A DNA stretch of 64,000 bases from an uncultured Actinomycetota bacterium. GTDB lineage: Bacteria > Actinomycetota > Geothermincolia > Geothermincolales > RBG-13-55-18. The notes beneath the pieces were generated by a model. It was given only the letters and a program-made list of their open reading frames with translations. It did no database searches and was not told the origin of the DNA. Made by a program: the position numbers and the translations under genes. The DNA is taken from assembly GCA_964510515.1 (NCBI GenBank), contig CAZEAU010000008.1, positions 5,379 through 69,378 of the forward strand, written 5' to 3'. Positions 16,931 to 56,812 of this stretch are shown here, piece after piece (the stretch's first letter is position 1; each line of letters opens with the position of its first letter).

Positions 16931-17080
16931 CCGTTTCCTTTCGCATCGCGTTCTCGCGGGCTTGCTGCTCGTGGGGCGCCCGCGCCGCCTTCCTTCCCTT
17001 GCGCAGGCATGCCGCGGGACCCCGCCAAGGTCCAGCGGGCAGCATCCCGCGGGCACGCCGCGCCGCGCGCGCTTGCCGCT

Positions 17081-26122: not shown

Positions 26123-26216
<94 letters not shown>

Positions 26217-34580: not shown

Positions 34581-34605
34581 CTTCGAGCACCTCCGTCCTC
34601 GCCCA

Positions 34606-35091: not shown

Positions 35092-35096
35092 CGCCC

Positions 35097-44098: not shown

Positions 44099-45061
44099 TC
44101 ACCTGCCGAAGCGGATGGCGAACCTCACGTTCCTGTGCGCCCTGTCGGCGGCTTCCCGGACCAGGACGTCCTCGTCGGCCAGGGTCTCTTCCAGCGCCTG
44201 CAGCGACCGCTCGTCCTTGAGTATCCCCAGGGACTTTACCGCCCCCAGGCGGACGTAGCGGTTCTCGTCCCCCAGCACCGCGATGAGCTCCGGGACCGCG
44301 TTGCGGTCGCCGATGACCCCCAACGCCTCCGCAGCCTTCCACCTCACGTGCGGGTGACCGTCGCGCAGCGCCGCCATCAGCGAGCCCACCGCCCTGCGGT
44401 CGCCTATCCTGCCCAGGGCGGTGGCCGCCCTCCACTTGGAGCGCAGGGTGCCGCTCTCCAGCTCCTCCATGAGCAACCCGACCGCCTGCGAGCCCATGAG
44501 CTCGCAGGCCTCCAGCGCCCCCCAGCGCACGCGCAGGCGTTCGTCGTCCAGGGAGCCCACCAGGGACCTTATCGCCGGCTGCCCCATCTTGACCAGGGCG
44601 TCCAGCGCCCGCTTGCGCACGCGCAGACTTTTATCGTCCATGGCGTCGATAAGGGGCCTGACCGCGGGGTAGCCCATGATGGCCAGGGACTTGGAGGCGA
44701 TCCAGCGCACGTTGACGTCGTTGTCCTTGAGGATCTCGATCAGGGGGGGTATGGCCCTCGCATCCCGCATCTTCCCCAACACCCCCGCGGCCTCGGCCCG
44801 GGTGTACTTGTTCTCGGCATCCAGGGCTTCGAGCAGGTAGTCGGCCACGGATTCCCCCATGTCCAGCAGAGAATCCGCGGCCGCCCACCTCACGCGCTCA
44901 TGCTTGTCCGAGAGGACGCCGATGAGCGCCCTGGCGGCGCTGCGGCTCTTGTGCCTGCCCAGCTCCTTCGCCGCCCTGAGGCGGATTCCGGGGTCCTCAT
45001 CCTCCAGGTCCTTCATCAGCTCCTGGGTGCGGTCCTCCTTCATGATGTTGAACGGGTTCAT
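44099..45061 (-). CDS. HEAT-repeat (PBS-lyase type) protein, paralog of 28532-29518
   Basis: Same VRW.AA.ALG repeat architecture. ATG 45061 after GGAGGGGAGG. Confidence 0.8.
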   Translation of the reverse strand: MNPFNIMKEDRTQELMKDLEDEDPGIRLRAAKELGRHKSRSAARALIGVLSDKHERVRWAAADSLLDMGESVADYLLEALDAENKYTRAEAAGVLGKMRDARAIPPLIEILKDNDVNVRWIASKSLAIMGYPAVRPLIDAMDDKSLRVRKRALDALVKMGQPAIRSLVGSLDDERLRVRWGALEACELMGSQAVGLLMEELESGTLRSKWRAATALGRIGDRRAVGSLMAALRDGHPHVRWKAAEALGVIGDRNAVPELIAVLGDENRYVRLGAVKSLGILKDERSLQALEETLADEDVLVREAADRAHRNVRFAIRFGR

Positions 45062-45338
45062 GTCAAACACGTCCAGCTTTCCTCCCCTCCGCTCTTCCGC
45101 ACAAAAAACGCCCCGCGAGGGGCCTCGAACCCTTGCCTGCGTCCGCATCATGACCCTGGTCCTTGCCTGCGCCCACATTATAACTCTAACAGAAGGGTTC
45201 CCCCGCGCGGGAGAGGACAAACAAGGAGCGCACGGGGGTCTTCCCACGGAGCACTCGTCTCCGGCGCGCCCCGCCTCGCCGCGCCCAGGAAGGTCGTGGG
45301 GGGCTTGGGGGCGGCGGGGCGGGTGCTACAATGTGTAA

Positions 45339-46960: not shown

Positions 46961-48106
46961 ATGGACGAGTCAGCAAACGGTGTGCGCGACATGCTGCGCA
47001 GCGAGGCCTGCGGCTTCGCGGCGCGCGTCCTGCGCGGCGGGGGCGAAGGGCGCATGAGGGACCCCGTGCGCCTCATGGAGATGCTCGCGCAAACGGCGGC
47101 GGCGGGGTACCCGGGCCTGCTCATACCCGCCTCGTGCGGCGGCGAGGGCGGCGGCCTGCTGGAGGCCTGCATCGTGGTCGAGGAGGTCGCGGCCGAGGAG
47201 CCCAGCCTGGCCCTCATGCTCGTCCACCACCTCTCCTGCGCGCTCGGCATCGTGCTCTGGGCGGGAGAGGGGCAGAGGCTGCGCTTCCTCCCGCCGCTGT
47301 GTTCGCTGCGCAGCGTGGGGGCCGTGGCCCTCACCGAGCCCGAGGCGGGAAGCGACCTCGCGGCCGTCAAGGCGAGCCTGCAGAGAAGGGGCGGGCATCT
47401 CGTGCTCGACGGCAACAAGTGCTTCGTCACCAACACCGGGGAGGGCATCGACGCCCTGGTGCTGGGTTTCTTCCGCGATGCCTCGGGCCTGGCCTGCGCC
47501 CTGGTCCCCTCCTCGGCCCCCGGGTTCCACCTTGCCCACCACTACCGCTTCGCGGGCTGGGAGGGCCTTCCCAATCACGCCATCGTCCTGCAGGGCTGCC
47601 TTGTCCCCGCCGACCACCTCGTCGCGGAACGCCTGGAGGACGAGGGTTACCGGCGCTGGTGGGACGGCTCGATGCTGCTGGTCACGGCCCTGGCGGTGGG
47701 CATGATGAGGGCCTGCAGGGAGAAGGCGGTGCGCTACTGCGGCGAGCGCCGCCAGTTCGGCAAAAGGCTGCTCGAACACCAGGCCCTGCGTTTGCGCATC
47801 TCCGATATGGCGGTCTGCGAGACCCTGGCCAGGACGGGTATGGAGCTCGCCGCCGCGCGCTTGGACGCGGGAGCGTCCTGCCACGACGAGGTGTGCATGC
47901 TCAAACTCTTCGCCACCGGGCGCCTGGAGGAGGTCGCCTCGTCGGCGGTGGAGATGGCGGGGGGATACGGGTACACCCTCGACAGCGGCCTTTCCGCGCT
48001 CTACCGCGACGCCAAGGGGTTGCAGCTGCTGTGGGGAACGCGGGAGATGATGCGCCTGGAGATAGCCCGCTCGCTGGACGCGCCGCCGCACTCATCCCGC
48101 TCCTGA
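46961..48106 (+). CDS. Acyl-CoA dehydrogenase family protein
   Basis: AVALTEPEAGSDLAA and the C-terminal GGYGY..D block. Confidence 0.85.
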   Translation: MDESANGVRDMLRSEACGFAARVLRGGGEGRMRDPVRLMEMLAQTAAAGYPGLLIPASCGGEGGGLLEACIVVEEVAAEEPSLALMLVHHLSCALGIVLWAGEGQRLRFLPPLCSLRSVGAVALTEPEAGSDLAAVKASLQRRGGHLVLDGNKCFVTNTGEGIDALVLGFFRDASGLACALVPSSAPGFHLAHHYRFAGWEGLPNHAIVLQGCLVPADHLVAERLEDEGYRRWWDGSMLLVTALAVGMMRACREKAVRYCGERRQFGKRLLEHQALRLRISDMAVCETLARTGMELAAARLDAGASCHDEVCMLKLFATGRLEEVASSAVEMAGGYGYTLDSGLSALYRDAKGLQLLWGTREMMRLEIARSLDAPPHSSRS

Positions 48107-48170: not shown

Positions 48171-48653
48171 TCAGCGCCCGCCGCGCCAGCGGTGACCCCC
48201 GCCGCGGACGCCGCTTCCCCGCGCGGGCCGCGCGGAGCCGCGGGATGCCCTGCTTGCCGCCCTCGTCCACCTTGTGCTGACGCCGCTTCCCCGCACGGGC
48301 CGCGCGGAGCCGCGGCCCGCGAACCTGGCGATCAACCGGTACAGCGCCGGGACGAGGACCGCCGCGACCGCGACCTTCTGCTCCCTGGCGAGAAGGGGCC
48401 GCGCCCTGATGGCGGACACCGGCCGCGCCTCCGCTCGGGGCTCCGCAAGAGGCCGACCTGCCGTGCGCGGAGCCGGAAGCTCCTCGTACTCGTAGATGGC
48501 GCCCTGGGGGCAGGACTCGGCGCAGGAGCCGCACGAGGTGCACAAGCCCTGGATTATCTCCGCCGTCTGACCCTGCATGCGGATAGCCCCGCTGGGACAG
48601 CTCTCCAGGCACAGGCTGCACCCCGTGCACAGTTCCTCGTCAACCGTAAACAT
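48171..48653 (-). CDS. 2x[4Fe-4S] ferredoxin with long low-complexity C-terminal tail
   Basis: CTGCSLCLESCP and CTSCGSCAESCP. The remaining about 100 aa are Arg/Ala/Gly-rich; the true stop may be earlier if there is a frameshift. Confidence 0.65.
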   Translation of the reverse strand: MFTVDEELCTGCSLCLESCPSGAIRMQGQTAEIIQGLCTSCGSCAESCPQGAIYEYEELPAPRTAGRPLAEPRAEARPVSAIRARPLLAREQKVAVAAVLVPALYRLIARFAGRGSARPVRGSGVSTRWTRAASRASRGSARPARGSGVRGGGHRWRGGR

Positions 48654-48684
48654 GCTCAAGACACCCCGGTGCGGCCGCATGCGC

Positions 48685-49944
48685 TCAATGGTCGCAGACA
48701 TTGTCGCCCAACTCCAGGGAACCGGCGACATATTCCTTCACCGCCCGCAGGGGCTCGATGGCCGGCGCGCCGCAGACCACCCTCACCCCGCTCTGGGCGA
48801 ATATCTGCTGGGCCCTCGCCCCCATGCCTCCGGCGATCACCGTCTTCACGCCCTTTTCCGCCAGCCAGCGCGGCAGCAGCCCGGGCTCGTGCGGCGGGGC
48901 GTTGCACACCTCCTTGACCGCCGGCTCTCCTCCGTCGACGGCCTGCACCAGGGTGAATTTCTCGCAGTGCCCGAAGTGCGCACACAACAGGCCATCCTGG
49001 GTGGGAACCGCGTATATCTCCATGCCTTCCTCCTCGCCTTCTTTCGCTCCTCCGGGGCTTTCGCCCGCGCCCGCCGCGGCGCTCTCCGTTTTTTCGCCGC
49101 CCGAGGTCAGGGCCACCACCCTGTCCACCATGCCGTCGAGTATGGGAGCCACTGCGGGCAGGTCGCGGTAATGGCCCTTCTTGGCCCCGCCGCGATCCGC
49201 CCAGGCCGCGAACTCCGCGTCCAGGGGAAGGGAGGCCAGCAGCTCCACCTGCATCTTCTCCGTCATCTCCGCGGCCCCGCCACTCCCGAAGATGTCCACG
49301 CTCTCCCCGCAGTGAGGGCAGACGAGGCCGCTCATGTTCTCCACCACCCCCAGCATGCGCATGCCGATGCGGCGGCAGAAAACGATGGACTTGCGCACGT
49401 CCGCTATGGCCAGTTCCTGGGGCGTGGTCACCACCAGCCCCCACGCATCCGGTATCAGCTGCGCCACGCTGAGCGGCTCGTCTCCGGTGCCGGGGGGGGA
49501 GTCTATGACCAGGTAATCGAGTTCGCCCCAGTGGATATCCTCCATGAACTGCCTGATGGCCGTCATCTTCAGGGGGCCCCTCCAGATGACCGCGCTGTCA
49601 TTATCTTCCATGAACAGTCCGATGGATATCACCTTGAGGTTGCCGGCCACGCTGAAGGGGAAGATCCCGCTCTCATCGCCGCTGACCCTCTCGCCCACCA
49701 GCCCGAATATCACCGGTATGCTGGGGCCGTGGAAATCCACGTCCATGACCCCCACCTTGTAGCCGCGCTCCGCCAGGCCCAGGGCCAGGGACGCCGCCAC
49801 CGAGCTCTTGCCCACCCCGCCTTTTCCGCTGAGCACCATGATTTTATTCTTAACACCCGCGAAATTCGGATGCTGCGACGGCTTCGCCTGTTCTCCACAG
49901 TCTCCTTTACAATCTCCTTTACATGCTGTCACTTTATCTCGCAT
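48685..49944 (-). CDS. Mrp/NBP35-family P-loop ATPase fused to NifX/NifB-like (Nitro_FeMo-Co) domain
   Basis: SGKGGVGKSS Walker A, CPHCG pair, then a C-terminal about 110-aa dinitrogenase FeMo-cofactor-binding-like fold (KTVIAGGMGARAQQIF). Confidence 0.85.
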   Translation of the reverse strand: MRDKVTACKGDCKGDCGEQAKPSQHPNFAGVKNKIMVLSGKGGVGKSSVAASLALGLAERGYKVGVMDVDFHGPSIPVIFGLVGERVSGDESGIFPFSVAGNLKVISIGLFMEDNDSAVIWRGPLKMTAIRQFMEDIHWGELDYLVIDSPPGTGDEPLSVAQLIPDAWGLVVTTPQELAIADVRKSIVFCRRIGMRMLGVVENMSGLVCPHCGESVDIFGSGGAAEMTEKMQVELLASLPLDAEFAAWADRGGAKKGHYRDLPAVAPILDGMVDRVVALTSGGEKTESAAAGAGESPGGAKEGEEEGMEIYAVPTQDGLLCAHFGHCEKFTLVQAVDGGEPAVKEVCNAPPHEPGLLPRWLAEKGVKTVIAGGMGARAQQIFAQSGVRVVCGAPAIEPLRAVKEYVAGSLELGDNVCDH

Positions 49945-49972
49945 CCCCTTTCCTTGTCGTTATTATCAACCC

Positions 49973-50383
49973 CTACTCGCCGTCCCCGCAGCGCTGGTCC
50001 CGCTTGGGCCGGCGGATGCGGTCCGGGTTCTCCTTGAGCTCGCCCTTTAAGTAACAGGCCAGCGCCTCCTGCGTCAATTCCTCGTCCGTGGCGATGGGGA
50101 GCACGTCCCTGCGCAGCATCCCCACGTAGGCATTCTCTCCCATGCCCCCGCAGATGACCACGCGCACGTCCGGGAGGAGCTTCTCCAGCAGCTCCCAGCA
50201 GCCCGCCTGGGTATCCTCCTCTCCCCTCGCACATTCCATGCGGTTCACCCGGAACTCTTCGTCGGTGACCTTGCCTTTCGTCACCGTATAGACGGCGAAA
50301 AGCGGCGCCGCGCCGAAATGGCATGCTATCACCTTGCCGTTCTCGGTGGCCACCGCGACCTTGTGCTCCTGGTGGAGGATCAT
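49973..50383 (-). CDS. NifX/NifB-like (dinitrogenase FeMo-cofactor biosynthesis domain) protein
   Basis: KVAVATENGKV .. HFG .. VVICGGMGENA pattern. Confidence 0.8.
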   Translation of the reverse strand: MILHQEHKVAVATENGKVIACHFGAAPLFAVYTVTKGKVTDEEFRVNRMECARGEEDTQAGCWELLEKLLPDVRVVICGGMGENAYVGMLRRDVLPIATDEELTQEALACYLKGELKENPDRIRRPKRDQRCGDGE

Positions 50384-50578
50384 CGCCTTCCCCTCCCAGC
50401 GCTCTTCAGCCTGCGCCATTTCGGCTCTACCCACAGGTAAACGCCAAGGAGCGCCGAGACGAGGCCGGAGTATATGTGCAGCTTTCTCAGAGTTTTTCTC
50501 CTCGGCATCATGCCTCTCATCCTCCAGCCCTCGAGGGGGTCTGCAGGGCGCCCCGACAGTTAATTATAGTCCTTATAT

Positions 50579-50696
50579 AGCATATGTCCAGTAACAAGAT
50601 CATGCTCCTCACGCTCGCATTTCATCATCTCATACACGATGCTTTACACATGGTTTACACTAGTATAATATATTTATGGGCATATGCCTAGTAATG
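50579..50696. promoter_or_regulatory. Divergent AT-rich promoter region with two 18-bp direct repeats around CATATG cores plus -35/-10-like boxes
   Basis: AGCATATGTCCAGTAACA (50579-50596) and GGCATATGCCTAGTAATG (50679-50696). TTTACA (50643) and TATAAT (50664) lie between them. About 40% GC. Confidence 0.4.
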
Positions 50697-50738
50697 AAGG
50701 CGCGGGGAGCGCCTGACGCGGATGTGGAGGTGAGACGG

Positions 50739-50921
50739 ATGGCATGGCTGGGAAGAGGACGCGGAAGCGGAAGGCCCGCGGGTGGCCGCGGTGCCGCCGG
50801 AACCGCTGTATGCCGCTGCCCCAAGTGCGGGCACAGCGAGCCGCACACCAGGGGCGTCCCTTGCTCCAGGAAGAGCTGCCCCAAGTGCGGAACGCGCATG
50901 GTGGGGGCGAACTGCGGTTGA
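50739..50921 (+). CDS. Small Gly/Arg-rich, Cys-rich protein (60 aa)
   Basis: ATG 8 nt after GGAGGTGA. MAWLGRGRGSGRPAGGRGAAG then CRCPKCGH .. CSRKSCPKCG, a two-CPKCG zinc-knuckle-like arrangement. Confidence 0.5.
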   Translation: MAWLGRGRGSGRPAGGRGAAGTAVCRCPKCGHSEPHTRGVPCSRKSCPKCGTRMVGANCG

Positions 50922-50983
50922 GAGAGCGCCGCGAGGCGCGGTCATGGCACAGGAGATTGACGCATTGAGGAGAGGAGAATGAC

Positions 50984-51532
50984 ATGAAGGTAGCCATATC
51001 ATCTACGGGACCCGACTTGACGGGCAACGTGGACCCCCGTTTCGGCCGCTGCGCCTACTTTATCTTCTACGACACCGATACGGGAAACTGGGAGGCGGTG
51101 CCCAACGCCAACCGTGACGCCGCCGGCGGGGCGGGCATCCGCACCGCCCAGTCCGTGGTGGAGAAGGGCGCGGAGGCCGTGCTCACGGGCAATATCGGCC
51201 CCAACGCCATGCAGGTGCTCTCGGGGCAGGTCAAGGTGTACACGGGCTTTTTCGGCACCATCGAGGAGGCTCTGCAGGCGCTGAAAACGGGCGGCCTCAC
51301 CGACACGACCTCGCCCACGGTCCAGGACCACGCCGGCCTGGGCGGCGGAGGCGCCGCCGGTCCCGGCACCGGCATGCCGGGCGGAGGCATGGGCATGGGC
51401 GGAGGCATGGGCATGGGCGGAGGCATGGGCATGGGCGGAGGCATGGGCCGCGGCATGGGCGGAGGCATGGGCCGCGGTGGAGGCCGCGGTGGAGGCCGCG
51501 GCAGGGGCGGTAGAGGTGGGGGGCGTTGGTAA
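50984..51532 (+). CDS. NifX/NifB-like domain protein with C-terminal Gly/Met/Arg low-complexity tail
   Basis: MKVAISSTG .. RFGRCAYFIFYD .. AVLTGNIGPNA core. Tail is (GGGMGM)n then (GRGG)n, encoded by a 21-bp DNA tandem repeat at 51383-51480. Confidence 0.8.
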   Translation: MKVAISSTGPDLTGNVDPRFGRCAYFIFYDTDTGNWEAVPNANRDAAGGAGIRTAQSVVEKGAEAVLTGNIGPNAMQVLSGQVKVYTGFFGTIEEALQALKTGGLTDTTSPTVQDHAGLGGGGAAGPGTGMPGGGMGMGGGMGMGGGMGMGGGMGRGMGGGMGRGGGRGGGRGRGGRGGGRW

Positions 51533-52386
51533 TCACAGTCGCCGCCGGCAAGGGCGGGACCGGCAAGACCCTGGTGGCGGTGAACCTGGCCCTTTCCCTG
51601 CACCGGGCGGGGGTGAAGACGCTGCTCGCGGACGCCGACGTGGAGGAGCCCAACGCTCACCTTTTCATCAGGCCCTCCATCACCAGCCGCGAGGACGTCA
51701 CCATAGCCATACCGCGCATCGACGAGGAGGTCTGCGACCGCTGCGGTGAATGCTCCTCCTTCTGCGCCTTCGGGGCGCTGGCCACCACGCCCGCGCGGGT
51801 CATCCTCTTCGACGACCTCTGCCACGGTTGCGGGGGATGCACGCTGGTATGCCCCCTCGGCGCCATCAGCGAGGAGCCGCGGCTCATCGGGGCCATCGAG
51901 CGGGGACGCAGCGCCGAGGGCCTGGACTTCATGCACGGGATCCTGGAGATAGGCGAGCCCATGGCCAGCCCCATTATCGCCGCCATCAAGGAGCGCCTGG
52001 ACCCCGCGGCCGTGAACATCGTCGATTGCGGGCCGGGAACGGGCTGCGCCGCCATGACCGCGGTGCAGGGCTCGGATGTGTGTATCATGGTCACCGAGCC
52101 CACCCCCTTCGGCCTGCACGACCTGCTCATGGCGGTGAAGATGGCCGAGACGCTCGGGGTGCCCTCGCTGGTGGTGGTGAACAAAGACGCGCCGGGCAAC
52201 ACCGAGGTGAGGGACTTCTGCGCCGAGCACGGCCTGGAGATAGCGCTCTCCATACCCTTCTCCATGGAGACGGCGCGGCTCACCTCGAGCGGCGTCAACC
52301 TGGTCGACAGCGAAAAGGACTGGCAGAGGACGTTCTATTCCCTCTACGAGAGGGTATCCCCCATGGTCTCCAGCGGAGGTGCCTGA
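51526..52386 (+). CDS. MinD/ParA-type P-loop ATPase with inserted 4Fe-4S ferredoxin domain (COG1149-like)
   Basis: AAGKGGTGKT deviant Walker A. CDRCGECSSFC and CHGCGGCTLVCP ferredoxin motifs. TTG start. Confidence 0.85.
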   Translation: MVITVAAGKGGTGKTLVAVNLALSLHRAGVKTLLADADVEEPNAHLFIRPSITSREDVTIAIPRIDEEVCDRCGECSSFCAFGALATTPARVILFDDLCHGCGGCTLVCPLGAISEEPRLIGAIERGRSAEGLDFMHGILEIGEPMASPIIAAIKERLDPAAVNIVDCGPGTGCAAMTAVQGSDVCIMVTEPTPFGLHDLLMAVKMAETLGVPSLVVVNKDAPGNTEVRDFCAEHGLEIALSIPFSMETARLTSSGVNLVDSEKDWQRTFYSLYERVSPMVSSGGA

Positions 52387-52387
52387 G

Positions 52388-53266
52388 ATGAAACAACTGG
52401 TCATCCTCAGCGGCAAGGGCGGGACGGGAAAGACCACGGTCACCGCCTCCCTGGCGCAGGCCTTAAAACCGGTGATGCTGGCCGACTGCGACGTGGAGGC
52501 GCCCAACCTGCACCTCCTGCTCTCCCTGAAAACGGAGAAGTCCTACGCCCTGCGGGTCTCGCGCAAGGCGAGGATAGACCCTGAGCTGTGCACCTCCTGC
52601 GGCCTCTGCGAGGAGCACTGCCGCTTTGGAGCCGTCGTCGCCTCCGACCCCTACAGCATCGACGTATTCAGCTGCGAGGGCTGCGGGGTCTGCGGCCACG
52701 TGTGCCCGGAGAAGGCCGTCGACTTCTTCGAGAGCGACGGGGCACAGGTCTATATCGGCACCACGCCCTACGGGCCCATGGTCGGGGCGGAGCTCGCCAT
52801 GGGCGAGGAAGCCTCGGGCAAGGTGGTGTCGCAGGTGCGGATGGAGGCCCAGGCGATGGCCCATGAGGCCGGGCTACCGCTCATCATCGTGGACGGCTCG
52901 CCGGGCACGGGATGCCCGGTGATCGCCTCCCTGAGCGGCGCGGACCTGGCCCTCATCGTCACCGAGCCCTCGCTTTCGGGCCTGCACGACCTGGAGAGGA
53001 TACTGCAGGTGGCGAAGCACTTCGGCATCCCCACCATGGTGTGCATCAACAAATGCGACATCGTGCCCGAGCTGGCGGACCGTATCAGGCGGAGATGCGG
53101 GGAGCTGGGCATAGAGGTTGCCGCGCAGATACCCTTCAGCGAAGAGGTGGTGGAGGCGCTGCGCGCCGGGCGTCCGCCCCTGGGAAACGTGCCGCAGCGG
53201 GTGGAGGAGCCCCTGCGGCGCCTGGCCGAAGCGGTCGTGGCGCACACGGCGGTAGCCGCCAATTGA
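52388..53266 (+). CDS. Second MinD-type ATPase with ferredoxin insert (paralog)
   Basis: SGKGGTGKTT. CTSCGLCEEHC and CEGCGVCGHVCP. ATG 52388 after AGCGGAGGTG. Confidence 0.85.
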   Translation: MKQLVILSGKGGTGKTTVTASLAQALKPVMLADCDVEAPNLHLLLSLKTEKSYALRVSRKARIDPELCTSCGLCEEHCRFGAVVASDPYSIDVFSCEGCGVCGHVCPEKAVDFFESDGAQVYIGTTPYGPMVGAELAMGEEASGKVVSQVRMEAQAMAHEAGLPLIIVDGSPGTGCPVIASLSGADLALIVTEPSLSGLHDLERILQVAKHFGIPTMVCINKCDIVPELADRIRRRCGELGIEVAAQIPFSEEVVEALRAGRPPLGNVPQRVEEPLRRLAEAVVAHTAVAAN

Positions 53267-53451
53267 GAAGCGCGGTCACGCGGGGCCGGAGGCGGGGCGG
53301 CGGAGGTGACAAATGCCCGCCGTTGCCATATAAAAGAGGCGAGGGAGGTGGGCTCTTGACCGCACCCGCCGATCCCGGGCCGCCGGGGGAGGCGCCCCGC
53401 ACGTAACGCCAGGGGCAGGAGGAGAACAGCGCGCATAAAGGAAGTGAGCAA

Positions 53452-53850
53452 TTGGCCAGGCCCGTCAAGCCCAAGCTGGTGGGGTGGGCGCCCCGCACGG
53501 ATTACTTCAAACCCAGGGGCATACCCCTTGCCCAGCTCGAGGAGGTCAGACTGAGCGTGGAGGAGCTGGAGTCCCTGCGCCTGGTGGACCTGGAGGGCAT
53601 GTATCAGGAGGACGCCGCCCGGGAGATGGGCGTCTCGCGCCAGACGGTGCAGCGCATGATCGCCGAGGCCCGGGCCAAGGTTATCGGAGCCCTGGTTACC
53701 GGCCGGGCCCTGCGCATCGAGGGGGGGAGCTACATCCTCCGCGAGGGCGCGGGCCAGTACCGCTGCGGCCGCTGCGGCGACGCCTTCCCCTTCCGCCAGG
53801 GGCGCAAGGGGCGGGGGTGGAAGTGCCCCACCTGCGATTCCGGCGAATGA
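53452..53850 (+). CDS. DUF134-family predicted DNA-binding protein with C-terminal zinc ribbon
   Basis: YFKPRGIPL .. VEELESLRLVDLEGMYQEDAAREMGVSRQTVQRMIAEARAKV sigma-70-region-4-like HTH. CGRCG..CPTC ribbon. TTG start. Confidence 0.75.
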   Translation: MARPVKPKLVGWAPRTDYFKPRGIPLAQLEEVRLSVEELESLRLVDLEGMYQEDAAREMGVSRQTVQRMIAEARAKVIGALVTGRALRIEGGSYILREGAGQYRCGRCGDAFPFRQGRKGRGWKCPTCDSGE

Positions 53851-54082
53851 CGGCGGGTGAGCCGCCCTGGCGGGATATCGCCCGCCGCCCCATAGTCATC
53901 ATGCGCTCCCCCCATACCCGCGGCCCGGGCACCCCCATGCGGCCCGAGGGGGCCGGGTGCGGTTCGCTGCTTGGCTTAACCTTGCCAAACCGCCCCTTGC
54001 GCACCCCGATATGCGGCAGAGCGACGGTGCTTCCCCGCCGCTTGAGGTATGGTATTAGAAAGCCCGGGGGAAAGGTGCGAGC

Positions 54083-54808
54083 ATGTTAGCGCAGAGCATA
54101 GTGTCCCAGGCCATGCGGGCGGGCGGGGGACTTCGCCTGCACGAAGCGGTGGTCGGCCTGGGTTTCACCCTGGTGAGCCTGGAGGGCGGCGCCTGCGGCC
54201 TCGCCTATACCCTGCGCGACGAGCTGGGGCGCGGCTGCGACGCTTTCACGCAAGCGGGGAGCCTGGTGGGCAGGGAGGCAGGAGAGGCCCTGGAATGGAT
54301 GGGGAGGGGCTCGGTCGTCGCCTCCGCCGTCGGCCTCGCCGTGGCCAACGCCCTGCTGCCGCCGCCCGCGGAGGCCTTGGCCACGGACCTCATGGATATG
54401 CTTTCCCTGCGGCCCGGGGAGCGCGTGGTCACGGTGGGGAGGTTCCGCCCCCTGGAGCCGAGGCTGAAAAAGAGGGGGGTGGCCCTGGAGGCCGTCGAGC
54501 GGGGAGACCCGCTGCAGCCCCTGCGGGGATGCGACGTGGCCCTCGTCACCGCCACCGCCATCATCAACGGAACCCTTGAGGACATCCTCCCCGCGACCGC
54601 GGGAGCCCGGGAGGTGGTCGTCCTCGGACCCAGCACCCCCTGCGCCCCCGCGGCTTTCGCCGGAACCGCCGTCACCCTCCTCGCCGGCTCGGCCGTGGCC
54701 GACCGGGAGCGGGCGCGGGCGGTGGTGCTCGAGGGCGGAGGCACGCAGACCCTGGGCAAGTCGCTGCACAGGTGGACGCTGCGCGTGAGCGAGGCGAGGC
54801 GGGGATGA
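54083..54808 (+). CDS. DUF4213/DUF364-type Rossmann-like protein (putative metal-chelation domain)
   Basis: GFTLVSLEGGACGLAYTL N-terminal block and the central glycine-rich fold typical of the family. Confidence 0.6.
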   Translation: MLAQSIVSQAMRAGGGLRLHEAVVGLGFTLVSLEGGACGLAYTLRDELGRGCDAFTQAGSLVGREAGEALEWMGRGSVVASAVGLAVANALLPPPAEALATDLMDMLSLRPGERVVTVGRFRPLEPRLKKRGVALEAVERGDPLQPLRGCDVALVTATAIINGTLEDILPATAGAREVVVLGPSTPCAPAAFAGTAVTLLAGSAVADRERARAVVLEGGGTQTLGKSLHRWTLRVSEARRG

Positions 54809-56007
54809 AAAGGACCGAGCGGGCGGCCGCCCTCTCCGTCGTCGTCACCACCCTCCTGGGCGGGGGCATGATCGCCGTCGCCGCTGTCTCGGGCAGCGTG
54901 TCCCTGGTCGCCGAGGGCATACACACCATGACCGACAGCGTCACCTCGCTGGCCCTCCTCATCGGCCTGCGCCTCTCCGAGCGCCACAGCGAGACCTTCC
55001 CCTTCGGCCTCTATAAGCTGGAGAACCTGGTGGCCACGGCCATCGGCGTCCTCATCCTGGTCGGCGCCTACGAGCTGGGCTCCGAGTCCATCCGCCATCT
55101 CGGCGAAGAGCCGCGCGCCCTGGAGCACGAATGGCTGATGATGGCGGTGATGGCGGTGAGCATACTCTGCATAGGAGCCCTGGCCTGGTACAAGAACAAG
55201 GTCGCCCGCGAGGAGAACTCCCCCGGGCTGCGGGCGGACGCGCGCCACTCCATGAGCGACCTCGCCGCGGCGGTGGCCGTGCTGGTGGGTATCGGCCTGC
55301 ACATGGCGGGCGTGCCCCGGGCGGACTCCGTCGCCGCCCTGGTGGTGGTGGCCTTCCTCGCCTGGGCGGGGATAAACGTCACCCTCAACGGGGTGAAGGT
55401 GCTCCTCGACGCCTCGGTGGAGAAGGAGGTGCTCTTCCAGGCGCGGGAGATAGCGCAGGCCCATCACGGGGTCAAGGAGGTCCTGCATGTGGAGGGGAGG
55501 AACTCGGGCAGCTACCGCTTCCTCAACCTCGTCCTCGTGCCCCGCAGCCGGAACCTGGACCTCGCCGACCACGTCGCCGAGGAGGTGCGGGACAGCATCT
55601 CCCGGGGCATCCCCAAGGTGGATCGGGTGAACATCAACCTGCGCACCGAGGCAAGGGAAAGCATGCGCGGCGCCGTCATGCTGGAGGCGGACGGCGCGAC
55701 CGTGTCCGGCCATTTCGGCGACGCCCCGGCCTTCGCCCTGCTCGACTTCTCCCTCCCTGGCGCGGGGACCGTCTCCCGGGAAATGCTGTTGAACCCCTTC
55801 ACCGACCTCTCCCGGGGCAAGGGGGTCAAGGTGGCGGAGTTCCTGGCCCAGCAGGGCGTGGACGTCGTGGTGGTCAAGGAGGACCTGGAGGGCAAGGGCT
55901 CCCATTACGCCCTGGAGGCGCACGGGGTGCTCGAGCTGTTCCGGCCGGAGCTGAAGAGCCTGGAGGACGCCGAGAGGGAGCTGGCCGACTTCGTGCGCGG
56001 CCATTAA
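54805..56007 (+). CDS. Cation-diffusion-facilitator transporter fused to C-terminal NifX/NifB-like domain
   Basis: 6 TM with HTMTDS and HSMSD metal-site motifs, a cytoplasmic CDF C-domain, then an about 100-aa NifX-like fold (HFGDAPAFALLDF .. GVDVVVV). Confidence 0.8.
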   Translation: MKRTERAAALSVVVTTLLGGGMIAVAAVSGSVSLVAEGIHTMTDSVTSLALLIGLRLSERHSETFPFGLYKLENLVATAIGVLILVGAYELGSESIRHLGEEPRALEHEWLMMAVMAVSILCIGALAWYKNKVAREENSPGLRADARHSMSDLAAAVAVLVGIGLHMAGVPRADSVAALVVVAFLAWAGINVTLNGVKVLLDASVEKEVLFQAREIAQAHHGVKEVLHVEGRNSGSYRFLNLVLVPRSRNLDLADHVAEEVRDSISRGIPKVDRVNINLRTEARESMRGAVMLEADGATVSGHFGDAPAFALLDFSLPGAGTVSREMLLNPFTDLSRGKGVKVAEFLAQQGVDVVVVKEDLEGKGSHYALEAHGVLELFRPELKSLEDAERELADFVRGH

Positions 56008-56044: not shown

Positions 56045-56812
56045 ATGATGCATACATCACACCTGGAAGGCATGGCTTTCACCGCGGGGCGCTGGCCCCT
56101 GGACCCAGGCCTGCCCACCGCCGTCTTCATCCACGGCTCCGGGGGGGCGGGTGTGCTCTGGCACGCGCAGGCGCAAGAGCTGGCGGAGGAGATGAACACG
56201 CTGGCCCTCGACCTCCCGGGACATGGCGCGAGCGGCGGCGAGGGCATGGAGCGCGTGGAGGATTACGCCGCGCGCGTGGACGCCTTCATCGCCTCGCTGG
56301 GGGCGCCGCGCCCCATACCCTGCGGCCTGAGCATCGGCGGGGCCATCGTCCTGCAGCTGCTGCTGGACCACCCGGGCCGGTACGCGGCGGGCATCGTGGT
56401 CAACTCAGGCGCCAGGCTGCGGGTGCTGCCCATGATATTTGAGGCCGTGGAGAAGGATCCGCGGGCCTTTGCCGAGGCCGCCCCCGCCTTCAGCATCGCG
56501 GAGAAGACCGACCCCTCCGTCATCGCTCCCCTCCTGGAAGCGATGGCCGCATGCCCCCCCGAGGTCACCCTGGGCGACTTCCGCGCCTGCGACTCCTTCG
56601 ACGTCATGGAGAGGCTGGGCGAGATAGAGGCGCCCGTCCTCGTCCTCACCGCCGCGGAGGACAAGATGACCCCCGTCAAGTACGGCGCCTTTCTCGCGGA
56701 GCGCATCGCGCGCTCCACCCTGCTCAACATCGAGGGAGCCGGCCACCTCTCCCCCATGGAGAAGCCCCGCGAGGTGGGCGAGGCCATAGCGGAGTTCGTG
56801 CGCTCGCTGTGA
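56045..56812 (+). CDS. Alpha/beta hydrolase
   Basis: HGSGG oxyanion region, nucleophile elbow GLSIGG, C-terminal GAGH. Confidence 0.8.
   Translation: MMHTSHLEGMAFTAGRWPLDPGLPTAVFIHGSGGAGVLWHAQAQELAEEMNTLALDLPGHGASGGEGMERVEDYAARVDAFIASLGAPRPIPCGLSIGGAIVLQLLLDHPGRYAAGIVVNSGARLRVLPMIFEAVEKDPRAFAEAAPAFSIAEKTDPSVIAPLLEAMAACPPEVTLGDFRACDSFDVMERLGEIEAPVLVLTAAEDKMTPVKYGAFLAERIARSTLLNIEGAGHLSPMEKPREVGEAIAEFVRSL

What the first reader, a model, noticed from the sequence alone, without database searches (positions are those of the whole stretch)
48171..56007. Divergent NifX-like / Mrp / MinD-ferredoxin / DUF134 / DUF364 / CDF cluster: a metallocofactor trafficking system with no nitrogenase nearby
Within 8 kb there are four NifX/NifB-type cofactor-binding domains: two stand-alone, one fused to an Mrp/NBP35 ATPase and one fused to a CDF metal transporter. 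The same stretch holds two paralogous MinD-type ATPases with ferredoxin inserts, a 2x[4Fe-4S] ferredoxin, a DUF364 putative metal-chelation protein, a DUF134 DNA-binding protein and a small Cys-rich protein. All are arranged divergently around one AT-rich promoter. No nifHDK, nifEN or nifB radical-SAM gene is present. The system therefore presumably builds or stores a non-nitrogenase metal cluster, which could feed the AOR, hydrogenase-like or other Fe-S enzymes. The function of this gene neighbourhood is not established.
Basis: partly seen in the sequence, partly recalled or inferred. Interest (0 to 1): 0.7.

Follow-up and report, generated by a model that had tools for sequence, protein, structure and literature searches.

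The report
Orange-protein (ORP) metal-sulfur cluster, actinobacterial variant
This 8-kb stretch is an actinobacterial version of the "orange protein" (ORP) gene cluster known from sulfate-reducing Desulfovibrio, a set of iron-sulfur and metal-sulfide handling proteins of anaerobes whose role is still unclear, here with a different predicted regulator (DUF134) and extra metal-handling genes.

Summary
All ten genes and all four NifX-like domains pass Pfam thresholds. They form two divergent operons around a 49%-GC promoter region, and about 60 scanned ORFs of the window contain no nif gene.

The locus does have a name, though. The Mrp-NifX fusion passes NCBIfam's equivalog model for MrpORP (491 bits, cut-off 450) and carries every MrpORP motif. 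Beside it lie an ORP-type NifX protein (61 bits to D. gigas ORP, 2wfb) and two MinD-ferredoxin ATPases like Orp3/Orp4. This is the Desulfovibrio ORP cluster (DVU2103-2109), whose role the literature still calls unclear.

The host is a Geothermincolia-like anaerobic Actinomycetota. Differences from Desulfovibrio:
- No sigma-54 promoter or OrpR. Instead there are two sigma-70-type promoters, each overlapped by an operator with core GCATATGC. That palindrome also precedes DUF134-led orp-like operons in Planctomycetota, Spirochaetota and four unassigned metagenome contigs, so DUF134 is the predicted repressor.
- The ORP homologue carries an IssA/IssX-like Gly/Met/Arg tail.
- A translationally coupled DUF364 + CDF-NifX pair, a ferredoxin and an unannotated 43-aa ORF are present.

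Verdict: a variant of a known but functionally unresolved system. Interest is moderate.

The parts
48171..48731 (-). 2x[4Fe-4S] ferredoxin with a ~100-aa C-terminal extension. The extension has a hydrophobic stretch KVAVAAVLVPALYRLIA followed by an Arg/Gly/Trp-rich cationic tail (pI 12). It is the last gene of the leftward operon. The start is uncertain: 48731 or 48653.
   Evidence: Pfam Fer4 59 bits and several dicluster models. Tail composition. Ribosome-binding-site comparison. Conserved after Mrp in L001-L005.
48685..49944 (-). MrpORP: an Mrp/NBP35 P-loop Fe-S carrier ATPase fused to a C-terminal NifX-like (Di-Nase) domain.
   Evidence: NCBIfam NF041136 MrpORP equivalog, 491 bits against a 450 cut-off. 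Pfam ParA 302 bits plus Nitro_FeMo-Co 64 bits. Motifs in the sequence: CKGDCKGDC, GKGGVGKS, CPHC, LCAHFGHCE, APPHEPGLLP and C-terminal CDH. These match those described for MrpORP.
49973..50383 (-). Divergent stand-alone NifX-like protein. It is 136 aa from ATG 50383; the open frame extends to GTG 50434. It sits directly upstream of MrpORP.
   Evidence: Pfam Nitro_FeMo-Co 46 bits. Weak NCBIfam nifB/nifX matches. Only weak PDB matches to NafY, NifX and TM1816. Start inferred from conservation and an ATGA overlap.
50380..50511 (-). Unannotated 43-aa ORF (MMPRRKTLRKLHIYSGLVSALLGVYLWVEPKWRR...). It is the first gene of the leftward operon and is translationally coupled to the NifX-like gene. It contains one hydrophobic helix; whether this spans the membrane is not established.
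   Evidence: The reading frame and peptide are conserved in L001, L002, L004 and L005. GGAGGA ribosome-binding site. Only a handful of small-protein relatives among 1.84 billion representatives. No Pfam hit. Hydropathy is not decisive.
50563..50590 (-). Leftward sigma-70-type promoter, TGGACA-16-TATAAT (11 of 12 matches).
   Evidence: Conserved in the alignment of five actinobacterial loci.
50580..50594 (.). Operator box 1, GCATATGTCCAGTAA. This is a degenerate copy that overlaps the -35 element of the leftward promoter.
   Evidence: The two copies in the window compare with 0.01 expected by chance, and they lie exactly 100 bp apart, as they also do in L001 and L002.
50643..50671 (+). Rightward sigma-70-type promoter (TTTACA ... 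TATAAT/TAATAT).
50674..50693 (.). Operator box 2, TTATGGGCATATGCCTAGTA (core palindrome GGCATATGCC). It lies immediately downstream of the -10 element of the rightward promoter.
   Evidence: The same palindrome family precedes DUF134-led orp-like operons in L006, L016, L084, L085, L086 and L087.
50739..50921 (+). Small 60-aa Cys-rich protein with an RG-rich N-terminus and a CxCxxC...CxxxxCxxC zinc-ribbon-like motif. It is the first gene of the rightward operon and sits in the position of the small Cys-rich Orp5.
   Evidence: Sequence. Only 5 relatives, all unnamed or hypothetical and without Pfam. Only a sub-threshold zinc-ribbon Pfam match.
50984..51532 (+). ORP/IssA-type NifX-like protein: a ~112-aa globular domain plus a 70-aa Gly/Met/Arg tail (41 G, 10 M, 7 R, pI 12) that ends in RW.
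   Evidence: Pfam Nitro_FeMo-Co 82 bits. PDB matches: TM1290 83 bits, MTH1175 73 bits, D. gigas ORP 2wfb 61 bits (E 1e-15). Tail composition and its presence only in the actinobacterial orthologues. IssA/IssX tail criteria.
51526..52386 (+). MinD-type ATPase with an inserted 2x[4Fe-4S] ferredoxin domain (Orp3/Orp4-like), copy 1.
   Evidence: Pfam ParA, CbiA and Fer4. GKGGTGKT and two CxxCxxCxxxC motifs. No solved homologue of the whole architecture.
52388..53266 (+). MinD-type ATPase with an inserted 2x[4Fe-4S] ferredoxin domain (Orp3/Orp4-like), copy 2. It is 34% identical to copy 1.
   Evidence: Start site from the GGAGGTG ribosome-binding site.
53452..53850 (+). DUF134/UPF0251 DNA-binding protein: a sigma-70-region-4-like helix-turn-helix plus a conserved C-terminal Cys4 ribbon. 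It is the predicted repressor of both promoters.
   Evidence: Pfam DUF134 81.5 bits. The four Cys are at least 90% conserved across 36 homologues. AlphaFold model has pLDDT 83, and its HTH superposes on sigma region 4, ArdK and DeoR DNA-binding domains. The link to the operator rests on co-occurrence.
54083..54808 (+). DUF4213 + DUF364 protein (enolase-N-like plus Rossmann-like folds). This family neighbours metal transporters; its only characterised member cyclises a SAM derivative.
   Evidence: Pfam 102.6 and 58.8 bits. PDB 3npg and 3l5o. Literature. Also found beside orp-like clusters in L002, L004 and the Desulfatiglandales loci.
54805..56007 (+). CDF metal transporter with a cytoplasmic C-terminal NifX-like domain. 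Its start codon overlaps the DUF364 stop codon. Transport site A reads H-D / H-D.
   Evidence: TIGR01297 CDF 176 bits against an 82 cut-off; best equivalog scores are MamB 140 bits, MamM 116 bits and FieF 101 bits, all below their cut-offs. Pfam Cation_efflux 139.6 bits, ZT_dimer 25.7 bits (just below its 26.7 cut-off) and Nitro_FeMo-Co 38.7 bits. Alignment to E. coli FieF/YiiP. A recurrent ~400-aa fusion family.

Best explanation
What it is. The locus is an ORP-type ('orange protein') system of a Geothermincolia-like anaerobic actinobacterium.

Gene layout. Two back-to-back operons encode the system.
- Leftward: a 43-aa peptide, a divergent NifX-like protein, MrpORP and a ferredoxin.
- Rightward: a small Cys-rich protein, an ORP/IssA-type NifX-like protein with a cationic Gly/Met/Arg tail, and two MinD-type ATPases that each carry two [4Fe-4S] sites.
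- Further downstream: DUF134, DUF364 and a CDF-NifX transporter.

How it most likely works.
1. MrpORP assembles a bridging [4Fe-4S] cluster on its CPHC motif and passes clusters to the two MinD-ferredoxin ATPases. This step is shown for the Desulfovibrio orthologues and inferred here.
2. The ATPase pair, fed with electrons by the ferredoxin, acts as an ATP- and redox-driven handler of a labile inorganic metal-sulfide species. That species is held non-covalently on the NifX-like domains (inferred).
3. The long cationic tail of the ORP homologue buffers or stores the anionic metal-sulfide, as proposed for IssA and thioferrate (inferred).
4. The translationally coupled DUF364 + CDF-NifX pair is a lineage-variable accessory module. 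It couples the system to metal export across the membrane and possibly to a small-molecule chelator (inferred).

Regulation. Two sigma-70-type promoters drive transcription. Each is overlapped by one copy of an operator with core GCATATGC. DUF134, an HTH protein with a conserved Cys4 ribbon that could sense metal or Fe-S status, is the predicted repressor. It takes the place of the sigma-54/OrpR/IHF control used in Desulfovibrio.
For: Identity as an ORP cluster.
- MrpORP equivalog HMM scores 491 bits against a 450 cut-off.
- All published MrpORP motifs are present: CXXC, CXHFGHCE, Pro-rich PPHxPGxxP and C-terminal CDH.
- The ORP homologue matches 2wfb at 61 bits, E 1e-15.
- There are two paralogous MinD-Fd ATPases.
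- The divergent two-operon layout matches DVU2105-2103 / DVU2107-2109.
- A Desulfatiglandales locus (L013) has the same genes at 43-60% identity beside a PAS/sigma-54 activator of the OrpR type.

Conservation.
- Full synteny in five Actinomycetota MAG loci.
- Core synteny in Planctomycetota, Spirochaetota, Bacillota and Desulfatiglandales.

Cluster transfer. Transfer from MrpORP to Orp3/Orp4 is shown in vitro for Desulfovibrio.

Fe-S context. NifU_N scaffold genes lie inside the L013 cluster.

Tail. 41 Gly, 10 Met and 7 Arg in about 70 residues, pI 12. This fits the IssA/IssX description.

Regulation.
- No sigma-54 promoter in 64 kb; promoters.
- The operator occurs twice in the window against 0.01 expected.
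- TTATNNGCATATGCNNATAA with at most 2 mismatches: 7 sites observed against 0.35 in shuffles over 1.34 Mb. Six of the seven sit just upstream of orp-like operons.
- Sites in L085 (a perfect 20-mer), L086 and L087 turned up in loci fetched independently through DUF134 homologues.
- In all three of those loci, DUF134 is followed directly by NifX, Mrp-NifX or MinD-Fd genes.
Against: - No biochemical function of the ORP complex is established in any organism. The cargo (Fe-S, thioferrate, or Mo/W-Cu sulfide) is therefore unknown.
- I could not align against the Desulfovibrio Orp3/4/5/7 sequences themselves.
- The small Cys-rich protein and the 43-aa peptide have no detectable similarity to anything characterised.
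- The tail lacks the aromatic and proline richness of P. furiosus IssA.
- CDF-NifX lies beside an orp-like cluster in only 2 of 8 contexts. In the closest complete relative it is on another contig.
- The DUF134-operator link is correlative. The 20-mer pattern was derived from three of the sites it then recovers.
- DUF134 could be an activator rather than a repressor.
- There is no promoter-like site in front of DUF134, DUF364 or CDF, so their co-transcription with the rightward operon is assumed.
Confidence: 0.7

Rival explanations
1. The system handles molybdenum or tungsten as thiometalates, with or without copper, rather than iron-sulfur. ORP-type proteins would sequester or deliver [S2MoS2CuS2MoS2]-like clusters that form in sulfidic cytoplasm. 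The Met-rich (GGGM)n tail would bind Cu(I). DUF364 and CDF-NifX would link the system to Mo/W/Cu trafficking, ultimately protecting or supplying tungsten/molybdenum enzymes such as the AOR encoded in the window.
For: - D. gigas ORP, to which the 182-aa protein is homologous, binds a Mo-Cu sulfide cluster.
- DUF364 genes sit beside molybdate, tungstate and vanadium transporters in many genomes and inside a modABC operon that is cofit with nifH in M. maripaludis.
- One CDF-NifX homologue (L089) lies next to TOBE, modABC-like and two MoeA genes.
- An AOR with a ThiS/MoaD-like gene is at 16682-19147.
- The tail has 10 Met in about 70 residues.
Against: - No Mo/W transporter, TOBE or MoCo gene lies in or next to this cluster.
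- The AOR is 30 kb away.
- The experimentally shown activity in the system is Fe-S transfer.
- NifU_N Fe-S scaffolds are embedded in a related cluster.
- The CDF is of the Fe/Zn type: FieF, MamB and MamM are its best matches. CDFs are not known to move oxyanions (established knowledge).
- Whether the Mo-Cu cluster of ORP is physiologically relevant is itself unsettled.
Confidence: 0.2
2. The two MinD-like ATPases are positioning or cell-division proteins, as first proposed for the Desulfovibrio ORP complex. The metal-binding partners would only mature or regulate them.
For: - The ATPases belong to the MinD/ParA group: minD_arch 55 bits, with MinD structures among the best PDB matches.
- In Desulfovibrio, loss of OrpR gives morphological defects, MrpORP is polar, and Orp3/Orp4 have a MinD-like C-terminal amphipathic helix.
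Against: - Scores against the MinD models are far below their cut-offs: 55 against 202 bits.
- No minC, minE, ftsZ or par genes are nearby.
- The neighbours are uniformly metal and Fe-S proteins in every phylum examined.
- The literature itself calls the division link a hypothesis.
- The amphipathic helix was not tested here.
Confidence: 0.1
3. The locus is an ordinary or remnant nitrogenase cofactor (FeMo-co) maturation locus, with NifX/NafY-type carriers working for a nitrogenase encoded elsewhere.
For: - There are four Nitro_FeMo-Co domains.
- The 136-aa protein has weak nifB and nifX NCBIfam matches (34 and 31 bits) and weak NafY and NifX PDB matches.
Against: - No nifH/D/K/E/N/B is found among about 60 ORFs of the 64-kb window or in the 10-kb flanks of the syntenic loci inspected.
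- The nifB and nifX scores are about tenfold (nifB) and 3.6-fold (nifX) below their cut-offs.
- The same cluster occurs in Desulfovibrio, where it is studied as a nif-independent system.
Confidence: 0.03

Closest known systems
ORP (orange protein) gene cluster and complex of Desulfovibrio vulgaris Hildenborough (DVU2103-DVU2109; Orp3, 4, 5, 7, 8, 9) and D. alaskensis G20 (Dde_3202 = MrpORP)
   Same: - A two-domain MrpORP with all its signature motifs.
- An ORP-type single-domain NifX-like protein.
- Two paralogous MinD-like ATPases, each with two [4Fe-4S] ferredoxin motifs.
- A small Cys-rich protein at the head of the ATPase operon.
- Two divergent operons controlled from one shared intergenic region.
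- Restriction to strict anaerobes.
   Different: - No sigma-54 promoter and no OrpR enhancer-binding protein. Sigma-70-type promoters, a GCATATGC operator and a DUF134 protein take their place; IHF sites were not examined.
- The ORP homologue sits in the ATPase operon and carries a 70-aa Gly/Met/Arg tail.
- A second, divergent NifX-like protein precedes Mrp.
- Extra genes: a ferredoxin with a cationic tail, a 43-aa peptide, DUF364 and CDF-NifX.
- The host is an actinobacterium, not a deltaproteobacterium.
IssA (PF2025) of Pyrococcus furiosus, the thioferrate iron-sulfur storage protein, and the uncharacterised 'IssX' clade
   Same: - An IPR003731/NifX-like globular domain of the MTH1175 type.
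- It is followed by a long, unstructured, glycine-rich tail of high pI.
   Different: - The tail here is Gly/Met/Arg-rich, with one Trp and almost no aromatic or Pro residues.
- No direct comparison with the IssA sequence was possible.
- No evidence exists for nanoparticles.
- Here the protein is embedded in an ORP-type operon.
CDF transporters FieF/YiiP (E. coli, Shewanella) and magnetosome MamB/MamM
   Same: - A six-helix Cation_efflux domain plus a cytoplasmic ZT_dimer domain.
- The H/D-x3-D and H-x3-D transport site in TM2 and TM5.
- These are the best-scoring characterised relatives.
   Different: - An extra C-terminal NifX-like domain.
- Site A reads H-D/H-D rather than the D-D/H-D of YiiP.
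- Scores lie far below the MamB, MamM and FieF equivalog cut-offs.
- The transported metal is unknown.
NifX / NafY / the NifB C-terminal domain (nitrogenase FeMo-co carriers)
   Same: The same Pfam domain (PF02579) and the conserved HFG motif. These are non-covalent carriers of inorganic metal-sulfur clusters.
   Different: - No nitrogenase or radical-SAM NifB partner is present.
- Scores lie far below the nifX and nifB equivalog cut-offs.
- The genomic partners are different.

Membership tests
ORP (orange protein) cluster/complex of Desulfovibrio | A two-domain MrpORP: an Mrp/NBP35 P-loop domain with a CXXC motif, plus a Di-Nase domain with CXHFGHCE, a Pro-rich PPHxPGxxP stretch and a C-terminal CDH. 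| tested here: met
   NF041136 equivalog scores 491 bits against a 450 cut-off. GKGGVGKS, CPHC, LCAHFGHCE, APPHEPGLLP and the terminal CDH are read in the translation and checked against the published description.
ORP (orange protein) cluster/complex of Desulfovibrio | Two paralogous MinD-like ATPases, each with two [4Fe-4S] ferredoxin motifs (Orp3/Orp4). | tested here: met
   Both have Pfam CbiA/ParA and Fer4 hits. Each has two CxxCxxCxxxC motifs. They are 34% identical and 53% similar. No direct comparison with DVU2103/2104 was possible.
ORP (orange protein) cluster/complex of Desulfovibrio | A single-domain NifX-like protein homologous to the D. gigas orange protein (Orp8). | tested here: met
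   Residues 2-104 of the 182-aa protein align with 2wfb at 61 bits, E 1e-15.
ORP (orange protein) cluster/complex of Desulfovibrio | A small Cys-rich Fe-S protein (Orp5 / Dde_3197-like). | tested here: inconclusive
   A 60-aa Cys-rich protein heads the ATPase operon. It has no Pfam or NCBIfam family and only 5 unnamed relatives. No Orp5 sequence was available for comparison.
ORP (orange protein) cluster/complex of Desulfovibrio | Two divergent operons expressed from one shared regulatory region. | tested here: met
   Gene order and strands. Back-to-back promoters at 50563-50590 (-) and 50643-50671 (+).
ORP (orange protein) cluster/complex of Desulfovibrio | Sigma-54 promoters activated by the PAS/AAA+ enhancer-binding protein OrpR with IHF. 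| tested here: not met
   No TGGCAC-N5-TTGC match with at most 1 mismatch in 64 kb. No Sigma54_activat protein among about 60 scanned ORFs. The literature restricts OrpR to Deltaproteobacteria. An OrpR-like gene is present in the Desulfatiglandales locus L013.
ORP (orange protein) cluster/complex of Desulfovibrio | Physical Orp3-4-5-8-9 complex, and a Mo-Cu sulfide cluster on ORP. | not testable with these tools
   Needs protein purification and metal analysis.
IssA-type thioferrate storage proteins | An IPR003731 globular domain of the MTH1175/IssA clade. | tested here: met
   MTH1175 (1eo1) matches at 73 bits, E 2e-19. The IssA paper names MTH1175 as an IssA-type protein. No phylogeny was made.
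IssA-type thioferrate storage proteins | A long, unstructured, cationic, glycine-rich C-terminal tail, with aromatic residues and a proline-rich segment in P. furiosus. | tested here: inconclusive
   The ~70-aa tail has 41 G, 7 R, 10 M, 1 W, 3 P and pI 12. It is cationic and Gly-rich but neither aromatic-rich nor Pro-rich. It fits the looser 'IssX' description.
IssA-type thioferrate storage proteins | Forms Fe-S (thioferrate) nanoparticles and is induced by abundant iron and sulfide. | not testable with these tools
   Needs TEM, XAS and expression data.
nif (nitrogenase FeMo-co maturation) locus | nifHDK, nifEN or radical-SAM nifB in the neighbourhood, and NifX/NifB scores above the equivalog cut-offs. 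| tested here: not met
   No such Pfam families among about 60 ORFs. TIGR01290 nifB scores 34 bits against 344, and TIGR02663 nifX 31 bits against 112. The rest of the genome is not available.
Cation diffusion facilitator (CDF) transporters | Cation_efflux membrane domain, cytoplasmic dimerisation domain, and the H/D-x3-D motifs of transport site A. | tested here: met
   TIGR01297 scores 176 bits against 82. Pfam Cation_efflux scores 139.6 bits; ZT_dimer scores 25.7 bits, just under its 26.7 cut-off. H..D in TM2 and H..D in TM5 align with D45/D49 and H153/D157 of FieF. The MamB, MamM and FieF equivalog cut-offs are not reached.
DUF134 / UPF0251 DNA-binding proteins | A PF02001 domain with an HTH. 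| tested here: met
   PF02001 scores 81.5 bits against 27. The model has pLDDT 83 with a sigma-region-4-like HTH. DNA binding and the operator assignment are inferred, not shown.
DUF364 (PF04016) enzymes | A DUF4213 enolase-N-like domain plus a DUF364 Rossmann-like domain. | tested here: met
   102.6 and 58.8 bits. 3npg matches at E 2e-10. Catalytic activity was not tested. The only characterised member is a methyl-SAM cyclase.

The most novel reading that the evidence does not exclude
The actinobacterial variant may be a dedicated iron-sulfide storage and export system rather than a simple Fe-S maturation factor.
- An ORP/IssA-like protein, together with two further proteins bearing Arg/Gly-rich cationic tails, would nucleate and hold an anionic thioferrate-like (or thiometalate) polymer.
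- The MinD-ferredoxin ATPases would load or unload it using ATP and electrons.
- A MamB/FieF-like CDF with its own NifX-like domain would move the metal across the membrane.
- DUF134 would be a previously unassigned family of metal- or Fe-S-sensing repressors that recognises TTATnnGCATATGCnnATAA and controls such clusters across several phyla.
Probability: 0.12. Interest if true: 0.8.

Novelty: new variant of a known kind. Interest (0 to 1): 0.45.

Why it matters
The ORP system is widespread in strict anaerobes. It has been studied since the orange protein was isolated, yet its physiological role is still open.

This variant adds testable clues.
- A cationic IssA-like tail on the ORP homologue and a fused CDF-NifX transporter point to handling of an anionic inorganic metal-sulfide rather than to cell division.
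- Recurrent DUF364 and NifU_N neighbours tie the system to metal and Fe-S supply.
- The conserved GCATATGC palindrome gives DUF134/UPF0251, a family with no assigned function or structure, a concrete predicted operator and regulon. Gel shifts and genome-wide scans can check this directly.

It also shows that ORP-type clusters outside the Deltaproteobacteria use a completely different regulatory logic.

Tried and rejected
- **Sigma-54 control.** TGGCAC-N5-TTGC has no match with at most 1 mismatch in the window. A TGGCAC at 50944 has the wrong spacing to TTG. Rejected.
- **Exact-sequence look-up of MinD-Fd 2**. It failed because the real start is 52388, not the GTG at 52379.
- **CDF-NifX in the DUF134 regulon when unlinked.** GCATATGC lies 37-49 bp upstream of a stand-alone CDF-NifX in L082/L083. 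It is not conserved in the orthologous L088 and is absent in L081. Treated as chance.
- **Small Cys-rich protein as an MJ0401-type zinc ribbon.** BLASTP against the equivalent 82-aa protein of L084 gives only E 0.013 over 21 residues. Not established.
- **Membrane anchoring of the 43-aa peptide.** Its Kyte-Doolittle score (1.47) is no higher than that of a soluble control (1.56). Left open.
- **Riboswitch or other RNA in the 185-bp and 232-bp gaps around DUF134.** Rfam finds only four tRNAs in the window.
- **Positional orthology of the 136-aa NifX with Orp8.** By sequence, the 182-aa protein is the ORP homologue. The 136-aa protein has only marginal NafY/NifX matches.
- **Literature on DUF134, UPF0251, COG1342 and COG1149**. 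Nothing relevant was found.
- **Fievet et al. 2011** (PMC3133258). The paper is not held, so the original description was used only through later papers.
- **Solved structures.** No full-length structure exists for DUF134 or for the MinD-Fd architecture.
- **Operator scan at 4 mismatches.** It is uninformative: 56 sites observed against about 43 in shuffles. Only sites with at most 2 mismatches were used.

Full report
**1. Observation**

- Four Nitro_FeMo-Co (NifX-like) domains score 64.4, 46.4, 82.3 and 38.7 bits against a gathering score of 26.3. Two are stand-alone, one is fused to an Mrp/NBP35 ATPase, and one is fused to a CDF transporter.
- Two CbiA/ParA-type ATPases carry an inserted pair of CxxCxxCxxxC motifs. 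They are 34% identical to each other.
- Also present are a dicluster ferredoxin, DUF134 (81.5 bits), DUF4213+DUF364 (58.8 and 102.6 bits) and a small Cys-rich ORF.

The genes diverge from one intergenic region.
- Its central part, 50521-50738, is 49.5% GC against 66.8% for the window.
- It holds all four sigma-70-like promoter matches found in 8.3 kb; 0.7 are expected by chance.

The flanks are unrelated: acyl-CoA dehydrogenase at 46961-48106 and an alpha/beta hydrolase at 56045-56812. About 60 ORFs across the window were scanned. None is nifH/D/K/E/N/B or a sigma-54 activator.

**2. Refined anatomy**

Comparison with five syntenic loci and inspection of ribosome-binding sites change several starts.
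- The Cys-rich gene begins at 50739 (60 aa).
- The 153-aa NifX ORF most likely begins at 50383 (136 aa).
- MinD-Fd 2 begins at 52388.
- CDF-NifX begins at 54805. Its ATG overlaps the DUF364 stop codon, so the two are translationally coupled.

A 43-aa ORF at 50380-50511 (-), MMPRRKTLRKLHIYSGLVSALLGVYLWVEPKWRR..., was missed.
- Its frame and peptide are conserved in L001, L002, L004 and L005.
- It is ATGA-coupled to the NifX-like gene.
- It has no Pfam family and only a few small-protein relatives among 1.84 billion representatives.

**3. What it is**

NCBIfam's equivalog model for MrpORP (NF041136) scores 491 bits against a curated cut-off of 450. The translated protein carries each feature the MrpORP paper describes:
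- a Cys-rich N-terminus (CKGDCKGDC),
- GKGGVGKS,
- the cluster-bridging CPHC,
- the Di-Nase motifs LCAHFGHCE and APPHEPGLLP,
- a C-terminal CDH.

MrpORP is Orp9 of the 'orange protein' (ORP) complex of Desulfovibrio vulgaris. [quoted passage not shown] The remaining parts fit.
- The globular domain of the 182-aa protein aligns over its whole length with D. gigas ORP (2wfb, 61 bits, E 1e-15). It aligns even better with TM1290 and MTH1175.
- The two MinD-ferredoxin ATPases correspond to Orp3/Orp4, described as paralogues with two [4Fe-4S] motifs each.
- A small Cys-rich protein heads the ATPase operon, as Orp5 does.

The 136-aa NifX-like protein is a divergent extra, with only marginal NafY, NifX and TM1816 matches. 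I could not obtain the Desulfovibrio Orp3/4/5/7 sequences, so orthology of those parts rests on architecture and context.

**4. Host and conservation**

The closest loci are anaerobic Actinomycetota MAGs, 76-82% identical for Mrp. One is labelled Candidatus Solincola. DUF134 homologues are labelled Candidatus Solincola and Geothermincolales/Geothermincolia.

A tblastn of the ten proteins against 80 loci gives the following picture.
- The order ferredoxin-Mrp-NifX <> Cys-NifX-ATPase-ATPase-DUF134 occurs in the four long actinobacterial loci (L001, L002, L004, L005). The short contig L003 shows the part it covers.
- The core (Mrp, ORP-type NifX, two ATPases) also occurs in Planctomycetota (L006), Desulfatiglandales (L008-L013, L015), Spirochaetota (L016-L020) and Bacillota (L023).

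In the Desulfatiglandales locus L013 the cluster is preceded by a PAS/Sigma54_activat/HTH_8 protein of the OrpR type. It also contains CGGC, two NifU_N scaffolds, two ORP-like NifX genes and two DUF364 genes. This ties the actinobacterial cluster to the deltaproteobacterial ORP system. It also shows that Fe-S scaffolds and DUF364 are recurrent companions.

**5. Regulation**

There is no sigma-54 promoter in the window. Instead there are two sigma-70-type promoters.
- Leftward: TGGACA-16-TATAAT at 50590-50563.
- Rightward: TTTACA...TATAAT at 50643-50671.

Each promoter is overlapped by one copy of GCATATGYCYAGTAA.
- The copies lie at 50580 and 50680. Two copies compare with 0.01 expected by chance.
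- They are exactly 100 bp apart, as in L001 and L002.
- Box 1 covers the -35 element of the leftward promoter. Box 2 lies just after the -10 element of the rightward promoter.

The palindromic core GCATATGC also sits 31-59 bp before the DUF134 start codon in three further loci:
- L006: ATGAGCATATGCTCAT.
- L016: TTAGCATATGCTAA.
- L084.

I then fetched three further loci through DUF134 homologues only. In all three, DUF134 is the first gene and is followed by NifX, an Mrp-NifX fusion, or Fer4-NifX-NifX-ATPase-ATPase-DUF5320. All three carry the palindrome in the core promoter:
- L085: TTATTGGCATATGCCAATAA, a perfect 20-mer.
- L086: AGAGCATATGCTCT, lying between TTGACA and TATATT.
- L087: TTTTGAACGTATGTTCATAA.

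Across 1.34 Mb of fetched DNA, TTATNNGCATATGCNNATAA with at most 2 mismatches occurs 7 times against 0.35 in shuffles. Six of the seven sites are at orp-like promoters. The pattern was derived from three of these sites; those in L085 and L086 are independent.

The DUF134 protein itself fits a DNA-binding role.
- Its four C-terminal cysteines are at least 90% conserved across 36 homologues.
- Its AlphaFold model (pLDDT 83) has an HTH that superposes on sigma-70 region 4 and on the ArdK and DeoR DNA-binding domains. A beta-rich ribbon follows.
- No DUF134 structure or functional study was found.

I infer that DUF134 is the local, probably autoregulated, repressor, and that its Cys4 ribbon is a candidate metal or Fe-S sensor. 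This is correlative, not shown.

**6. Lineage-specific additions**

*Tails.*
- The ORP homologue carries a ~70-aa tail (41 Gly, 10 Met, 7 Arg, pI 12, ending RW) in all six actinobacterial loci. Orthologues in the other phyla are 119-120 aa and end in EGHW.
- The IssA paper defines IssA-like proteins by an MTH1175-type IPR003731 domain plus a cationic glycine-rich tail that is proposed to wrap anionic thioferrate. It also names an uncharacterised 'IssX' clade with high pI and glycine-rich tails. The protein here fits that looser description. It lacks the aromatic and proline richness of P. furiosus IssA.
- The ferredoxin (100-aa Arg/Gly/Trp extension, pI 12) and the Cys-rich protein (RG-rich N-terminus) are also cationic.

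*CDF-NifX.*
- The fusion is a recurrent ~400-aa family.
- Its best characterised relatives are FieF/YiiP, MamB and MamM, and its transport site reads H-D/H-D.
- It lies next to an orp-like cluster only in the window and in L084. In the MAG that contains L004 it is on another contig. Elsewhere it is paired with a second CDF, or sits near Mo genes.

*Region downstream of DUF134.* Its content varies among close relatives:
- DUF364 + CDF-NifX in the window,
- DUF364 alone in L002 and L004,
- a Peripla_BP_2/FecCD ABC transporter in L001,
- unrelated genes in L005.

*DUF364.* The family neighbours Fe, Mo, W and V transporters. Its only characterised member cyclises methyl-SAM to an azetidine amino acid.

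**7. Mechanism**

Shown for the Desulfovibrio orthologues:
- MrpORP binds a bridging [4Fe-4S] cluster and transfers it to Orp3/Orp4.
- Orp3, Orp4 and Orp8 co-purify.
- ORP holds a non-covalent metal-sulfide cluster.
- Expression is confined to very low redox potential.

Inferred here:
- The same transfer chain operates.
- The ATPase pair and the ferredoxin act as an ATP- and electron-driven handler of a labile inorganic metal-sulfide carried on NifX-like domains.
- The cationic tails buffer an anionic species.
- DUF364/CDF-NifX is an optional link to metal export or chelation.
- DUF134 represses both promoters.

The cargo is unresolved. I favour an Fe-S species, for three reasons:
- Fe-S transfer is the activity actually shown.
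- NifU_N scaffolds sit inside a related cluster.
- The CDF is of the Fe/Zn type.

A Mo/W-Cu thiometalate is the main rival, on four grounds:
- the Mo-Cu cluster of ORP,
- the Mo/W neighbourhoods of DUF364,
- the Met-rich tail,
- the AOR with a ThiS/MoaD-like gene at 16682-19147.

A cell-division role is weakly supported. A nif maturation role is essentially excluded within the window.

**8. Novelty and score**

The system belongs to a known kind, the ORP cluster. That kind is itself functionally unresolved. The window shows a variant in regulation, tail and accessory genes, in a phylum where it has not been described. The most useful new point is the predicted DUF134 operator. A specialist would find the locus informative rather than surprising, so I score interest at 0.45.

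Noticed in passing
window 50380-50511 (-): An unannotated 43-aa ORF (MMPRRKTLRKLHIYSGLVSALLGVYLWVEPKWRR...). It is conserved in four related loci and translationally coupled to the NifX-like gene. It has no family and very few relatives in public protein sets.
   Followed up: yes
window 25310-25546 (-) and 25640-25933 (-): A HepT-like RNase (79.7 bits) and an MNT-type nucleotidyltransferase (55.9 bits) form a toxin-antitoxin pair. It lies in a low-GC island (53% against 67%) next to tRNA-Ser (26125-26216) and was probably acquired horizontally.
   Followed up: partly
window 16682-19147 (-), 19460-20326 (-): An aldehyde:ferredoxin oxidoreductase (AFOR_N/AFOR_C, 265 and 383 bits) with a ThiS/MoaD-family gene immediately downstream and a TetR regulator upstream. 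It is a tungsten/molybdenum-pterin enzyme 30 kb from the ORP cluster.
   Followed up: partly
window 29786-30235 (+): A stand-alone NifU_N/IscU-like Fe-S scaffold gene (104 bits), about 18 kb from the cluster. NifU_N genes lie inside the related Desulfatiglandales cluster (L013).
   Followed up: no
window 33966-34640 (-) and 34606-35244 (-): [quoted passage not shown] This may be a tandem pair of half-size permease genes, a duplication or a frameshift.
   Followed up: no
window 28532-29518 (-) and 44099-45247 (-): Two HEAT/PBS-lyase-repeat proteins (HEAT_2 at 183 and 192 bits) of unknown role.
   Followed up: no
L013 7527-16851: A Desulfatiglandales extended ORP cluster. Its gene order is: OrpR-like PAS/sigma-54 activator, NifX, Mrp, CGGC, NifU_N, two MinD-Fd ATPases, two ORP-like NifX, a response regulator, NifU_N, then two DUF364 genes.
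   Followed up: partly
L004 3462-3481: An operator-like site, TAATTAGCATATACTCATAA (2 mismatches), lies 1.2 kb beyond the DUF364 gene, between a methyltransferase and an enoyl-CoA hydratase gene. Its target gene is unclear.
   Followed up: no
L089 8001-17233 and L090 6719-9257: In other genomes, CDF-NifX is paired in tandem with a second ~400-aa CDF, reminiscent of MamB/MamM pairs. In L089 the pair lies beside TrmO_N, TOBE, modABC-like and two MoeA genes.
   Followed up: no
L087 10852-11211; L084 6408-6656; DUF134 homologues: Other small proteins recur in DUF134-led clusters: DUF5320 and zinc-ribbon proteins of the Pfam MJ0401 type with RG/W-rich tails. Many DUF134 proteins carry the MJ0401-type ribbon fused at their C-terminus.
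   Followed up: partly
window 51526-53266: Both MinD-Fd ATPases have a conserved Cys seven residues after the Walker-B Asp (DCGPGTGC and DGSPGTGC). From memory, Cys132 of NifH occupies this position as a switch-II cluster ligand. This was not tested by alignment.
   Followed up: no
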